DNA from: Rhizophagus irregularis
Lineage: Eukaryota
Direction of reading: 5' to 3'
NCBI RefSeq assembly: GCF_026210795.1
Contig: NC_089431.1
Span: 744,001-808,000 of the forward strand
DNA length: 64,000 bases
The translations under genes and the position numbers were made by a program. The notes under the pieces were generated by a model. It did not search any database and was not told the DNA's origin. It was given only the letters and a program-made list of their open reading frames with translations. Position 1 is the first letter of the stretch. Every line of letters begins with the position of its first letter. Positions 19,203-56,608 of this stretch are shown in pieces.

Positions 19203-22200
19203 GGCTCGACTTCAACTCTCAATGACGAAATAGCGAACCATCGAGATATTCCATTCGTGTCATACGACATAGAAGAAGCCAAAGAGAATGTTAATAAAAT
19301 CCCCCATTATGTTCTTCGAATCTATGGACATCTCGTTAATGGCCAGAAGGCAGTCATCACCATTACTGGTATCAAGGTATTTTTCGATATTCGCGTTCCT
19401 GAAAATGCAAGTATTCCTAAATTCTGGTCCAAAATAAAGCACTTACTCGCTACTGAAAAAGACAGCCAGGGGAATAGAGTAAACATGAATCTAATCCGAA
19501 GGGAGTGCATAAAGGCATATCCTATTCGTGGCTACCATGCGGAAAAAAAGTCTTATCTTCGCATCATTGCACCTAATAAAGATATAAGGTTCACTGCTCT
19601 CGATATCATTTTAAACTATAATTCGAAGGTTGATCAAGAAAATAGGATAGAAACCGCTTCAGATGATACGGGCACATATTACCGTAAAGTCGCAAGAGAG
19701 TATAGAATACCACTTTCTGGATGGGGGTTAATAAGCGACTACAAATATAATTTCAGTGCACCTTATTATGCGAAATCCCAACATTGTCCGCATGCATTTT
19801 ATGTTCACATTGGTAATTTCCAACCCATAGTTGATTTTGGACCACTTTATAAAATTTATCCATCTTCTCTCTTTTCTCGTGACCGAGCATTAGTTCTAAC
19901 ATGGGACATAGAAACATACGATTCGCGTGGGTTAGGTAATGTCCCACAAGCAGAAAATGATACAGCTCAAGTTTTTATGATCTGTATGACAGTTCACTGG
20001 AAAGATGACCCAAAACCACTAGAACAAATACGTCTCGTTGATGTTGAGACGGCACCAGATCCACGTTGCATGACCATCATATGCGGGAATCAGACCAATC
20101 TCTTAAAGGCATTTGCTCTATGTTGGAAATCTTTTGCCCCAGACATCCAGCTTGGCTTTAACGATTCTGGATATGATTGGCCATTTATAGTGGAGAAGGC
20201 TACAAAATTAAAGGTTCTCGACTGGATGGTCCAACAAATGTCAGCAAATCCACGTAAGACAGCCAATATTCAATCCATCCTCATTTGGAATTATTTCGGT
20301 GGAACTGGAAAGCCATTAAGCAATGGTTTCTTTCATAGGGACCAATGGGCGAAGAAAACGGACAGGAACTTCAGAAGAACAGAAGGTCGTGAATCTATTA
20401 ACATCAAATTTGGTACCAATAATTTGAGCTTTGAATCATCTTTTCTTAAGCTTCCCGGATGCGTACCAATTGACGTTTGCGCGAGTTTGTTGCAACTTTT
20501 CCCCCGTTCAGAGAGAAGATCACTCAAATACTTCTTAGAAGATTGTGGTCTCGACAGCAAAGCCGATTTACCTATGAGCAAATTATGGAAGTACTATTCA
20601 GAAGCGAGGGGTAGGATTTCAGACTCTTCTACTGAAAATATGCACGAAATAGCTAATTACTGTACCATAGACGCCTTACGTTGTCAGGAGCTCGCGGTCA
20701 GGCATAATATAATAAATGATTATAGAGAAGTTGCTTCGATAGCATATATAACTCTATTTGATACACATTATTATGCCATAGGGACAAAAGTATCCAACCT
20801 CTTGGGTGCGGAAGCATGGACCCAGGACATACTATTTAGCATGAAAACTTCCGATCAGAAAGCATCTGGGAAGTTTCCGGGAGCATATGTTTTCCCGCCA
20901 GTAAAGGGTCTTGAAAATAAACGTCCTGTCACAGGTTTGGACTTCACTTCCTTATACCCTAGCATAATTATGACTTACAACCTCTCACCCGAGAAGATGG
21001 TCTCAACACTTTCGGAAGCAGATGAGTTAGAAAGAGAGAATAAAGTACTCCACAATATCGAGTTCAAGTATAATGGTAATCCTATACGAGCCTGGACTAT
21101 ACGGCATGGGAATAAGCCTGATCAGAAAGGTCTTTTCCCAAAGATATTGGAGAGATTGGGGAGAATGCGAAATGAAATAAAAGCCCAGCTAAAGCCTATT
21201 GGAAAGAAAAAGGAATATATGGGAAAGGTCAAAAGTAGAATGGATGGATCCCAAAGGGATCATGCCAGCGGATCTATCTCAATAGCGGATGCAATCAAAG
21301 ATGTTTTGTCCTCGACGAAGAATGTGAAGAAGCGTACTGAGATGGTTAAAATCTTAGATCCTTTTATTGATTTATCATATGATAATTTTATAAAAGAATA
21401 CAGTTCTGTCTGCTTTGCCTATGATTCTTTAAATTCTAAGCAGAAAGCCATTAAATTGTATATGAATTCATTCTATGGTGTGACGGGCAGAAGTGGCTCC
21501 CCATTCTACATACTCGAACTTGCTAAAGGTGTTACTTCGGCTGGGCAAGAAATTATCAAACGTGTTGCAGAGTACGTTAGAAAGAAAGGCTTTAGGATAA
21601 AATACGGTGATACCGATTCCTTATATCTCATTTGTCCAGATTCCTGCTATGAAAAATACGATCTGGCTTATAATGATGGGAAGGGAGAAATCTTTAAACT
21701 AGAGTATTGGACCGAGATGGTCAAGACTACTATGGGTGTAATGGAAAAATTGCGCAATGATGTGAATACTTTCCTCAGGCTCAAGACTAGATCAGATAAT
21801 CTTAAAATGGCCTACGAGGAAGTACTATTTCCAGTAGCGTTTACCGGAAAGAAAAAATATTTTGGCATTGACCATGAAGAGACTCCTAACTTCGAACCAA
21901 GAGAGCCTTTTATAAGGGGAATAGATACTGTGAAGCAGGGTAAATCCCAAGTTTTCAAAACTATAGGGGATCGTATTATGCGAAGGGCTATGGATATTAA
22001 TAACGTCCAATCACTCCATGAGATTGTTGAAGACGTTCTCAGGGATGCTATAATTAATCATGAGCAGTGGAATTTTGAACAATTTATAGAGACTGATGCT
22101 TGGAAACCCGATAAAGATAACAAAGCTGTTCAGCGTTTTATAGGACGAATGAAAGGAAAATATGATACTAAGATTCTGGTACCAGGTGGGCGCTTTAGTT

Positions 22201-23036
22201 ACGTAGTAACTCATCCAGATATGACTTTTGATTTACATGGTAGAAAGTTAGAACCAACTAAAGGCGAGAAAATGGAATTTGTGGATGTAGCTAAGGAATT
22301 GGGTAAGGAGTTAGATTTATATCATTATTACGAAAAAACTATCATTGGTCTCTGTGCCCGATTTATCATGTATGATAAAAGACATGAGCCGACCCCCTCA
22401 GATAAAATAATGCAAATTAAGGATCCGGATGAGAAATATAAGCAAATAGATGACCATGCTCAAAAGAAAGCCAAATCATGGCTTGAGGGTTTTGTGAAGG
22501 AGAATATTATAGTTAATGGTATTACTTCCAAGATGATGGTATCCCGTGGAAATGCTTATAAACGCGCCTATAGAAACGCTGTCATAGAAGCACAAGAAAT
22601 GTTGTATCAAAAGATAGGTAGTTCATATGAAATATTTCATGGTAAATGGCTTAGCTATGAGATTTTCATGGCAAGCAACCCTATCGAGGTATTATGGGAG
22701 ACATTTATGAAATGCGCTAGGAAAATTTCAAAAGATAAAAACCTCTCAGTAGATGACGAAATGAGGGAAAAAATATGCTCTGATTTTGCTCAATATCCTA
22801 GCGAGCTTGCAAAATGTATTGAAGAGTATAATTTATTCTTTCACAAATTGGTCTATCATATGCGTTATAAAGAGCATGTATCAATTCCAGAAGAAATCGG
22901 CCCAGTTTCATCCATGCGAAAAAATGAGATAATTGCTGACCTACCTACCTTACCTCATATATCAGAAATTGGGGCACTAGATGAGATTAGTAATTTATGG
23001 TATTTCCATCTTGAGGATGTGACCGAAAGCACTTAG
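19203..23036 (+). CDS. polB: Family B DNA polymerase (RNA-primed, NCLDV/asfarvirus-like), intronless; native start lost
   Basis: Exonuclease motifs [13 protein letters not shown] and YCTID. Polymerase motifs [30 protein letters not shown] and KKKY. Confidence 0.9.
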
Positions 23037-23326
23037 ATAAGTTATATTGTCAAGTATTCTTAGCTGAAATTGCCACACCTCTGCTAGAATACTTGCAACA
23101 TTATTTATGACCGCATATTTTTTCTCGTGCAATAATACTGGCTAATATCAATTCCTATAATCGATCTTCCGACCCTGAACATGAGAGATCCATCCCTCCG
23201 ATCATACAGCCCGACCTCGGAAATGTCTGGAGATGATCATTAGTATTTTAATTTGGCAAAACCGTATCCTTGAGATACGATCAGCCGAAAAATCCACATA
23301 TTTTAAAGATAAGCTTTATTGGTATA

Positions 23327-55700: not shown

Positions 55701-55885
55701 AGGAATGACCTTCGCGTTCTAAGAGTATGGCTTCTATTCCATCCTCATGGTCTGCGCCAAGAAAATGTCTTGGTCCGACACTATCGTCCCAAATTTTATA
55801 ACGGTATTCGCCTACACCAGCGCTTTTAAACTCATACGGGGCGGGCGCGTCGGAGAGGAACTCTGAAAGTGAGGATTGGGTCGTG
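52743..55885 (-). CDS. AEP primase, Zn finger and D5-like SF3 helicase, split by a one-base frameshift
   Basis: IVDFDL, KMSLHI, IDN, LRMLGSPK and CPICDREH; then RCGKN, IMNE, VLSN and a wHTH-like segment. The A8 run at 54850-54857 would be in frame as A7. The start is uncertain. Confidence 0.85.
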
Positions 55886-56608
55886 TTATTATATCGCAAA
55901 TATACAGTTCGAGAGAAACTATATACTCCGGGAGAAATAAGTTTAAAATGAAAATTAATTCCGAAATATATAAATCGACACATAAACTGACTATTTATAG
56001 TTATTAAAAATGGTATTTTATCGATGTACTTATATTCACAGGAGTGGTAAGATTTGCAATCGGGGATGCTACCATCCGAAGTAAGGATGGTCATCGGTCC
56101 TAGAAGACCGCGATCCTACGGTCCTACACCATAAAAAGACGGACCGGTCCATCTTAGTGTAAGACCGCGGTCTTTTGGTCCTGTATCACATATAATAAGA
56201 CCGTCGGTCTTTTTAAGGACCGCAGTCTTTTTAAGACCGATCGGTCTTTTTTCTTTTTTTTGCAAATAAAAAAAGATTTTCTTCCTTAACTTTATTAGGA
56301 ATAGCCTTGTTTTATAAATGAACACTAATTGGGATGATTTTTATTAATATAAATTTTTTTTTTTACAAATCACCTGGATTTATGATCATCACATACGTCA
56401 TGCACTTACTATTATTGTATTAGTGACAATCATATGATCATTTTCGTTTAATCAAACACTAACCTTTTAGCTAAATATGAGTTAAGCATGATAAAACTAG
56501 TTGTATTTATGCAAAAATGCATCACAGTGTTCAAACTTGCACAGTAGTTAAAAAATTTTCCCATCGCAATTTTTTTTTTTATTAAATTTTTTTTTTCTTT
56601 TTTGAATT

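What the first reader, a model, noticed from the sequence alone, without database searches (positions are those of the whole stretch)
19203..56090. Chimeric ~37-kb virus-like element: RNA-primed PolB, primase-helicase, protelomerase-like YR, integrase/A32 ATPase and Gag-protease without RT
Seen: all these modules lie in one gene-dense, less AT-rich block with PolB and primase-helicase at opposite ends. Known: Polintons pair an rve integrase and A32 ATPase with a protein-primed PolB, a cysteine protease and jelly-roll capsids. NCLDVs use RNA-primed PolB and D5 helicase but also encode a major capsid and usually RNA polymerase. LTR elements need RT. This gene set matches none of them. Inference: it may be an undescribed family of integrating, self-replicating DNA elements in which Gag plus retropepsin fills the structural role.
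Basis: partly seen in the sequence, partly recalled or inferred. Interest (0 to 1): 0.93.

Follow-up and report, generated by a model that had tools for sequence, protein, structure and literature searches.

The report
Fungal virus-derived self-copying DNA element
This is a damaged copy of a large repeated DNA element of mycorrhizal fungi that joins a giant-virus DNA polymerase, a primase-helicase, a predicted telomere resolvase, a Polinton-like integrase and a retrotransposon-like Gag-protease; it likely copies and inserts itself, which would explain the many orphan virus polymerase genes in these fungi.

Summary
The modules are real and are not chance nesting. The block is a decayed copy of a multicopy Glomeromycotina element family. 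Its PolB is closest to the African swine fever virus enzyme (684 bits vs 68 for Pol delta). With 20 other fungal copies it forms one clade inside asfarvirus-like viruses. The YR folds like protelomerases (top four structural hits TelA, TelA, TelK, ResT). Integrase and A32 are Polinton-like. Gag-protease has no RT or LTR and starts 30 bp from the integrase. Accession adjacency shows the same gene order at other loci: 6 of 9 other integrase loci in one assembly have a partner gene nearby. Fused gene models link integrase-A32, integrase-LRR and helicase-YR in other genera. Only this copy was seen with the whole set. Both ends are transposon breaks, so terminal repeats and TSD were not found; PolB, Gag, A32 and primase-helicase are damaged. 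No jelly-roll capsid was detected. Best reading: a self-synthesizing integrating element, likely with a hairpin-ended linear phase. Gag packaging is untested. Papers report the PolBs and A32s singly; my searches found none describing the unit.

The parts
17885..19202 (.). MITE copy A, the left break of the block; no target duplication; Gypsy pol on its left, 5'-cut PolB on its right
   Evidence: 94.8% identical to copy B, flanks differ
19203..23036 (+). RNA-primed family B DNA polymerase, asfarvirus-like; first 55 residues lost at the break
   Evidence: Pfam; PDB 8ywg 684 bits vs Pol delta 68; paralogues align from residue 56; tree
23252..23557 (+). Small ORF that follows PolB also in the most divergent PolB subfamily
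   Evidence: Fused models P0271, P0520-P0522, P0540, 69-78%
23670..24740 (-). Coiled-coil protein with a C-terminal hydrophobic stretch (possible membrane anchor, read by eye)
   Evidence: ORF; weak Mplasa_alph_rch hit, the label beside POL in 4 scaffolds of Gong Fig. S2; fused with protease in P0455
24939..25463 (+). Orphan ORF, 174 aa
   Evidence: No family hit
25532..26530 (-). Retropepsin-like protease (DSGA), in the -1 frame of Gag behind an A-run slippery heptamer; no RT follows
   Evidence: Pfam weak; junction; no stimulatory fold, z -0.19
26506..27820 (-). Gag C-terminal part: capsid-like region and CCHC knuckle
   Evidence: Pfam weak; Atlas 0.90
27821..29148 (.). MITE copy B inserted in Gag, 8-bp target duplication (27813-27820 / 29149-29156)
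   Evidence: empty site joined in 4 of 4 runs
29149..30319 (-). Gag N-terminal coiled-coil part, with one internal stop
   Evidence: ORFs; P0483 reads across both pieces
30350..31996 (+). rve integrase (D93, D158, E193 present) with a C-terminal nuclease-like domain; starts 30 bp from the Gag start, head to head
32063..32806 (+). A32-like packaging ATPase, one internal stop and a degenerate Walker A in this copy
   Evidence: integrase-A32 fused models in 10 proteins
32766..39556 (-). Accessory ORFs: conserved 339-aa orphan (33757-34776), split Uma2 endonuclease (36057-36795), two ORFs ending in a Cys/His motif like the primase tail (37379-37930, 38030-39556)
40568..46495 (.). Three Crinkler N-terminal-domain genes, in pieces; cargo or later insertions (not resolved)
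   Evidence: Pfam Crinkler 2e-13, 5e-29, 6e-14; GC 0.328, 0.423, 0.368
47166..47789 (+). Repetitive helical orphan, recurs at paralogous loci
47894..48940 (-). LRR protein, recurs beside integrase or YR in other genera
   Evidence: Pfam LRR_4 4e-11; fused models; L051
49115..50403 (-). Second protease-like ORF without the catalytic Asp (read by eye, no family hit), acidic ORF, coiled-coil ORF 49990-50403 used as right-side marker
50475..51004 (-). Broken partial duplicate of the YR N-terminal half
51115..52329 (-). Protelomerase-like tyrosine recombinase, intact; R218, K254, K323-x-x-R326, R356-H357, Y367
52743..54863 (-). D5-type SF3 helicase, out of frame with the primase in this copy
54817..55885 (-). 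AEP primase with Zn-binding tail; start codon appears lost; its first residues match the N-terminus of intact PolB paralogues (11 of 15)
56091..59745 (+). hAT transposon (transposase 56609-58561), the right break; no matching target duplication seen

Best explanation
The block is a decayed copy of a multicopy, Glomeromycotina-wide family of large DNA elements that likely insert with their Polinton-like integrase and likely copy themselves outside the chromosome with their own asfarvirus-type polymerase and primase-helicase, the predicted protelomerase likely closing the ends as hairpins. Shown: the genes, their relatives, the protelomerase-like fold, one origin of the fungal PolBs inside asfarvirus-like viruses, many copies, and the same gene order at other loci and genera. 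Inferred: the element is excised or copied out; primase, helicase and PolB replicate it by RNA priming; the YR resolves the replicated end junctions into hairpin ends, which would solve the end problem that Polintons solve by protein priming; the integrase reinserts it. Gag-protease is a captured retrotransposon module, now embedded in the element (element-like GC, no LTR or RT, 30 bp from the integrase start). Whether it packages the DNA together with A32 is open. This copy is dead: PolB, Gag, A32 and primase-helicase are damaged and both ends are lost.
For: PolB: best PDB hit 8ywg 684 bits vs 68 (8YWG occurs in the ASFV polymerase paper, listing only). 21 of 21 Glomeromycotina PolBs form one clade (SH-like 100), sister to environmental contigs; one of those contigs encodes an NCLDV capsid. 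YR: model pLDDT 89; Foldseek ranks 1-6 are TelA, E 7e-4 to 3e-3; VIA Z 10.6 TelA, 10.3 TelA, 10.0 TelK (rmsd 4.0, 162 aligned), 8.5 ResT, against 6.2 or less for the integrases and Xer recombinases listed; Atlas 0.96 to ResT-TelK clusters, 19 of 30 hits. Synteny by accession: protease GBC48979, integrase 48982, orphan 48993, coiled-coil 48996; PolB GBC33330 (75%), integrase 33336, coiled-coil 33348; integrase GBC19181, orphan 19177, coiled-coil 19167; integrase 36221, coiled-coil 36201; PolB 45523, integrase 45516; divergent PolB 35154, integrase 35150; PolB PKY57259, integrase PKY57253; R. clarus PolB GES87702, coiled-coil GES87675. 36 of 737 stored proteins are fused models of two or more window genes, including integrase-A32 (10), integrase-LRR (8), helicase-YR (7, two from Dentiscutata) and YR-coiled-coil (Ambispora). 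The left 20 kb is covered in 30 of 30 bins in 4 of 4 runs. Zhao 2023 reports 15-33 PolB copies per genome at strain-variable places, distinct from the 1.5-Mb virus, with no capsid gene.
Against: No other copy was seen with the whole set; the link from PolB to helicase rests on overlapping pairs. Only 3 of 9 other PolB loci and 6 of 9 other integrase loci in that assembly had a listed partner within 20 accessions (lists are capped at 15 members per cluster). Accession order is a proxy for position. No terminal repeat, TSD or palindromic resolution site was found; no palindrome with arms of 13 bp or more lies in the block. TM-scores to TelA are only 0.33-0.35 and no profile search hit PF16684. 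Only 1 of 28 metagenome YR loci had this helicase upstream; 4 of the 17 read had another ORF there. A divergent integrase group lacks the catalytic Glu. No extrachromosomal form or recent insertion was observed.
Confidence: 0.66

Rival explanations
1. It is the provirus of a small true virus of mycorrhizal fungi, and intact copies carry a divergent jelly-roll capsid that this copy lost or that searches miss.
For: A32 is a capsid-filling motor and is kept beside the integrase across genera. The 2026 preprint places Glomus and Rhizophagus A32s with Maverick-Polintons. The sister virus has an NCLDV capsid. Zhao's marker search also missed the A32 and D5 found here, so its capsid negative is soft. 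Both ends of this copy are lost.
Against: No match of two NCLDV capsids to the window's six frames (best E 0.59). No capsid family hit for the orphans scanned. The accession spans of paralogues (12-14 from integrase to the coiled-coil gene in three, 20 in one) are close to this locus, leaving little room for a lost block in the middle. No relative in viral contigs for YR, integrase or helicase. The orphans were not folded.
Confidence: 0.15
2. It is a fossil hybrid: an old asfarvirus-like insertion and a Polinton remnant fused once and were spread passively by segmental duplication or by flanking hAT/MITE ends, with no autonomous cycle now.
For: Most copies seen are fragmentary gene models; this copy is bounded by TE breaks; many metagenome copies have stops.
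Against: Several deep PolB subfamilies each span genera and keep long open frames. Modules are exchanged between subfamilies (45% PolB with 69-78% neighbour; 48%-class PolB beside a 78% integrase). YR catalytic residues are conserved. Copy positions vary among strains.
Confidence: 0.12
3. Two or more unrelated elements are nested by chance in a TE-rich region.
For: The window is full of TEs, and the middle (Crinkler genes, one at host-like GC 0.328) could be foreign.
Against: The same order of left and right markers at independent loci, cross-genus fused models, and uniform GC 0.38-0.40 of core genes against 0.32 and 0.31 for the flanking Gypsy and hAT genes.
Confidence: 0.04

Closest known systems
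'Fundsbetavirus' DNA polymerases of Rhizophagus irregularis (Gong et al. 2020, PMC7017919; Zhao et al. 2023, PMC10640383; Gallot-Lavallee and Blanc 2017, PMC5294986)
   Same: Same PolB family: scaffold lengths in Gong's Fig. S2 (24510, 7418, 4886, 4482, 1054 bp) match homologues found here; asfarvirus affinity; many copies; no capsid found.
   Different: Those papers treat the PolBs as traces of repeated infection; Gong's figure shows no integrase, helicase or recombinase beside them. Here the PolB is one end of an ordered unit with integrase, A32, Gag-protease, YR and primase-helicase.
Polintons/Mavericks (Polintoviricetes), especially group 2 with swapped replication modules (bioRxiv 10.64898/2026.06.19.733378, section 5)
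   Same: rve integrase next to an A32 ATPase; nearest non-fungal integrases are 40-46% identical; group 2 members can carry AEP and SF3 helicase.
   Different: RNA-primed asfarvirus-type PolB instead of pPolB; protelomerase-like YR; aspartic protease and Gag instead of cysteine protease and jelly-roll capsids; larger. A fungal Polinton is cited for Glomus intraradices; I could not read the source papers.
Asfarviridae-like Nucleocytoviricota and the 1.5-Mb endogenous virus of R. irregularis; Mycodnaviridae (PMC13533422)
   Same: PolB nested among asfarvirus-like viruses; AEP primase related to a viral AEP-UL9 protein; Mycodnaviridae also pair NCLDV PolB with Polinton-like integrases.
   Different: No major capsid, RNA polymerase, capping enzyme or VLTF3 hit in the block; tens of kb; multicopy; Zhao's Fig. 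S2 legend separates these PolBs from that of the 1.5-Mb region.
Protelomerase-bearing linear replicons (TelA, TelK, ResT; FirrV-1-B51 family)
   Same: Fold and catalytic layout of the YR.
   Different: Here it sits in a nuclear, integrase-bearing fungal element; no target palindrome found; activity untested.
Ty3/Gypsy retrotransposons
   Same: Gag with CCHC knuckle followed by a -1-frame aspartic protease.
   Different: No RT, RNase H or LTR; the integrase is on the other strand and is of Polinton type.

Membership tests
Polintons/Mavericks | rve integrase | tested here: met
   Pfam rve 1e-8, DDE present
Polintons/Mavericks | A32-like packaging ATPase | tested here: met
   Broken here; homologues pass the Pox_A32 cut-off
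Polintons/Mavericks | Protein-primed PolB (or SF1/SF3 substitute without an RNA-primed PolB) | tested here: not met
   PolB is PF00136 plus PF03104, closest to the ASFV enzyme
Polintons/Mavericks | Double jelly-roll capsid and cysteine protease | tested here: inconclusive
   No hit in family scans or with two NCLDV capsids; orphans not folded; ends lost
Polintons/Mavericks | Terminal inverted repeats and 5-8 bp TSD (recalled) | tested here: inconclusive
   Both ends are TE breaks; only an indirect hint from matching N-termini
Nucleocytoviricota (Asfarviridae-like) | NCLDV-type PolB | tested here: met
Nucleocytoviricota (Asfarviridae-like) | Primase-helicase and A32 | tested here: met
   origin of the D5 part not resolved (no match in the 2 records searched)
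Nucleocytoviricota (Asfarviridae-like) | Major capsid protein | tested here: inconclusive
   Best E 0.59 with the sister virus capsid; copy incomplete
Nucleocytoviricota (Asfarviridae-like) | RNA polymerase subunits, capping enzyme, VLTF3 | tested here: not met
   No such Pfam hit among the 30 block ORFs scanned; holds for this copy only
Ty3/Gypsy LTR retrotransposons | Gag and aspartic protease | tested here: met
   Weak Pfam hits below cut-off plus Atlas 0.90; not folded
Ty3/Gypsy LTR retrotransposons | RT and RNase H after the protease; flanking LTRs | tested here: not met
   Protease ends at 25532, 69 bp from a convergent ORF; self-BLAST shows no flanking direct repeat
Protelomerases (PF16684) | TelA/TelK/ResT-type fold with R, K, K-x-x-R, H, Y (motif recalled) | tested here: met
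   profile searches gave no hit
Protelomerases (PF16684) | Hairpin formation at a palindromic site | not testable with these tools
   No candidate palindrome in the block; needs an assay

The most novel reading that the evidence does not exclude
A new class of eukaryotic virus-like element: a linear, hairpin-ended double-stranded DNA genome copied by a giant-virus replisome, inserted by a Polinton integrase, and packaged by an A32 motor into a retrotransposon-derived Gag shell matured by its own aspartic protease, carrying Crinkler effector-domain genes between mycorrhizal fungi.
Probability: 0.2. Interest if true: 0.96.

Novelty: new variant of a known kind. Interest (0 to 1): 0.8.

Why it matters
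It offers one explanation for three loose observations in print: the 15-33 asfarvirus-like PolB genes per Rhizophagus genome without a capsid, the Polinton-related A32 genes of these fungi, and strain-variable 'viral regions'. They would be copies of a resident mobile element rather than repeated infections. It would add a self-synthesizing element that solves the end problem with a telomere resolvase instead of protein priming, an enzyme not found with Polintons or in Rhizophagus in my searches. If Gag packages the DNA, a retroelement capsid would serve a DNA genome. The family is a large, overlooked repeat class and a possible carrier of effector-like genes in the main plant symbionts.

Tried and rejected
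No whole genome is held, so ends and empty sites could not be read. Scans of viral contigs with single PolB, helicase, YR alignment and integrase alignment found no relative; PolB alignments found only 22-43% viral relatives. The one metagenome scan gave 28 contigs of 1-5 kb, too short for long synteny. The prokaryote scan gave 3 loci, none fungal-like. The first YR model was poor in the catalytic half (pLDDT 67) and gave no clear match; profile searches of PDB, Pfam, PHROGs, NCBIfam and phages did not name the YR. Read coverage of the right half (39-56.6 kb) was not obtained, so whether the Crinkler genes recur in other copies is open. One set of listed accessions with PolB, integrase and YR in the window's order was dropped before counting: it is 99.6-100% identical where unspliced and shows the same PolB truncation, so probably the same locus. 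Four runs of organism A with 0.01-0.03 word share were not used as evidence of absence. The 730-bp palindrome at 58804-59532 was rejected as a telomere site: it lies inside the hAT element and looks like a foldback MITE. The first IQ-TREE run did not finish; the tree is FastTree only, 48 rows. No stimulatory RNA fold behind the slippery site. Only 2 of 11 viral handles could be searched. Four look-ups in earlier findings gave nothing relevant. No complex was predicted.
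Full report
Host and setting. Homologues of the YR, integrase and PolB come from Rhizophagus (best hits 91-97%), Gigaspora, Dentiscutata, Cetraspora, Entrophospora, Diversispora, Funneliformis, Ambispora and Paraglomus, so the host is a Glomeromycotina fungus. No whole genome was held. The block has GC 0.369 against 0.311 and 0.291 in the flanks; core genes are 0.38-0.40, the flanking Gypsy pol 0.319 and the hAT gene 0.306.

The boundaries are breaks. A 1.3-kb element with 38-bp terminal repeats occurs twice. 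Copy B (27821-29148) sits in Gag with an 8-bp duplication, and the empty site is joined in 4 of 4 runs. Copy A (17885-19202) has no duplication: a Ty3/Gypsy pol cut in its protease lies on the left, and PolB lacking its first 55 residues on the right. The RT near the block therefore belongs to another element. On the right, hAT sequence starts about 200 bp upstream of the primase, again without a duplication. The true ends are lost. This copy is dead: Gag is split and has a stop, A32 has a stop and an altered Walker A, primase and helicase are out of frame, and the primase start appears lost.

Replication genes. PolB has exonuclease and polymerase motifs. Its best solved relative is 8ywg at 684 bits; Pol delta scores 68. 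8YWG occurs in the ASFV polymerase paper PMC11417396 (search listing only). In a FastTree of 48 rows, all 21 Glomeromycotina PolBs (plus one unlabelled metagenome row) form one clade with SH-like support 100, split into deep subfamilies that each span genera, sister to environmental contigs. One sister contig, G001, encodes an NCLDV major capsid. The primase aligns to the AEP part of a 1321-aa AEP-UL9 protein from a record that also holds an asfarvirus-like PolB and NCLDV capsids (E 5e-7 pairwise). The helicase is D5-type; its source is unresolved.

The YR. Profile searches do not name it. The Atlas gives 0.96 to ResT-TelK clusters (19 of 30 hits). A model from 95 sequences reached pLDDT 89. 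Foldseek ranks TelA first six times, ahead of Cre. The exhaustive aligner gives TelA 10.6 and 10.3, TelK 10.0 (rmsd 4.0 over 162), ResT 8.5, then 7.2 and below. R218, K254, R326, R356 and Y367 are conserved in 54/55, 45/47, 48/50, 42/43 and 45/47 rows; position 357 is H or Q. A tyrosine-recombinase fold is firm; protelomerase is the best class, but TM-scores are about 0.35 and no target palindrome was found.

Integrase, A32, Gag. The integrase keeps D93, D158 and E193 and has a nuclease-like tail. Beyond the fungal copies its relatives are 40-46% identical proteins of about 330-370 aa from metagenomes; that these are Polinton integrases is my recall, not a test. A32 follows it here and in 10 fused models from Rhizophagus and Entrophospora. 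Gag and protease hits are weak. The Gag start lies 30 bp from the integrase start, head to head, the protease is in the -1 frame behind an A-run, and no RT or LTR follows. This argues for an embedded module rather than a nested retrotransposon; a structural role is not shown.

Recurrence. I used accession adjacency from cluster listings, after dropping one set that is probably the window's own locus. In one public assembly, 6 of 9 other integrase loci and 3 of 9 other PolB loci had a listed partner within 20 accessions, always in the window's order where three or more genes were seen: protease-integrase-orphan-coiled coil (GBC48979, 48982, 48993, 48996), PolB-integrase-coiled coil (GBC33330, 33336, 33348), integrase-orphan-coiled coil (GBC19181, 19177, 19167). 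A divergent PolB lies four accessions from an integrase (GBC35154, 35150). PolB and integrase are six apart on a 26-kb scaffold of another isolate, and PolB and the coiled-coil gene 27 apart in R. clarus. Misses are not absences, since each cluster lists at most 15 members. Fused gene models link integrase-LRR (8; Entrophospora, Gigaspora), helicase-YR (7, one also with primase), and YR-coiled coil (Ambispora). Among 28 short metagenome loci, L069 has helicase-YR, L063 YR-coiled coil-second protease-like ORF, and L051 YR-LRR; 4 of 17 read have a different ORF upstream of YR, weakly like the UL9 part (E 0.0065), which suggests a second subfamily. The left 20 kb is tiled in 4 of 4 runs from four studies; 16 of 24 listed runs hold half or more of the words of 29150-39000. 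Limits: no second copy with the whole set was seen, and Gag-protease was linked only among close copies.

A hint at the ends. The first residues of the primase match the N-terminus of an intact PolB paralogue (11 of 15, E 0.004, noticed after the fact). Both genes point inward from opposite ends, as expected if terminal inverted repeats reach into both starts. This is an inference.

Capsid. Two NCLDV capsids found no match in the six frames of the window (best E 0.59), and the orphans scanned hit no capsid family. They were not folded and the ends are lost, so the test is inconclusive.

How it most likely works. The integrase inserts the element; primase, helicase and PolB copy it by RNA priming; the YR resolves replicated ends into hairpins, giving a linear free form; A32 with Gag-protease may package it. 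The genes and their linkage are shown; every step of the cycle is inferred. I put 0.66 on an autonomous integrating, self-replicating family, about 0.45 on the hairpin step and 0.2 on Gag packaging.

What is in print. Gong 2020 (PMC7017919; main text parts 1-2 of 3, supplement parts 2-3) named these PolBs fundsbetaviruses and shows no integrase or helicase beside them. Zhao 2023 (PMC10640383; parts 1-2 of 5, passages, supplement legends) counts 15-33 PolBs per genome, distinct from the 1.5-Mb virus, finds no capsid, A32 or D5, and reads them as ongoing infection. Gallot-Lavallee and Blanc 2017 (PMC5294986; passages) placed the PolB with Asfarviridae. A 2026 preprint (10.64898/2026.06.19.733378; section 5 and passages, supplement not seen) notes Polinton-related A32s in Glomus and Rhizophagus and cites an earlier Glomus Polinton; the source papers were not available. 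PMC13533422 and PMC5751038 were seen as passages. Nine searches found no description of the unit; the four that included protelomerase returned nothing. Subscription papers and Repbase were not searched.

Verdict. A real, apparently undescribed family of large virus-derived mobile elements; it works like a self-synthesizing transposon but fails the tested defining features of Polintons, giant viruses and LTR elements. Interest 0.8.

Noticed in passing
window 14628-17901 (-): Ty3/Gypsy pol (part of protease, RT, RNase H, integrase) cut at its 5' end by MITE A; GC 0.319.
   Followed up: partly
window 17885-19202 and 27821-29148: Two 94.8% identical 1.3-kb MITEs with 185-bp inner repeats and a 72-bp segment inverted between them; very high depth in all four runs laid.
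   Followed up: partly
window 58804-59532: Nested 730-bp foldback element inside the hAT transposon, with a near-perfect 8-bp flanking duplication read by eye.
   Followed up: partly
L046, L057, L060, L070: A second subfamily has, upstream of the YR, a small Cys-rich ORF and a long ORF weakly like the C-terminus of an AEP-UL9 protein instead of the D5 helicase; P0644 fuses such a tail to the YR.
   Followed up: partly
G002 (L072, L087, L088): A bacterial genome bin holds contigs with an asfarvirus-like PolB, NCLDV capsid genes and an AEP-UL9 protein, probably a mis-binned giant virus.
   Followed up: partly
window 37132-38463: Depth several-fold above the neighbouring bins in all four runs; the two ORFs here end in a Cys/His motif like the primase tail and seem to have many extra copies.
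   Followed up: no
P0108, P0111, P0114, P0125: A divergent integrase group keeps long open frames but lacks the catalytic Glu of the DDE motif.
   Followed up: no
window 40568-46495: Three Crinkler N-terminal-domain genes in pieces lie inside the element, one at host-like GC and one at element-like GC.
   Followed up: partly
window 3120-3986 (+): DUF3504 ORF (E 3e-5), a domain recalled from Crypton-type tyrosine-recombinase transposons.
   Followed up: no
window 12293-14124 (-): Broken ORFs that look like a CACTA/Plavaka-type transposase (recalled, no Pfam support), beside a 46-bp tandem array at 11587-12142.
   Followed up: no
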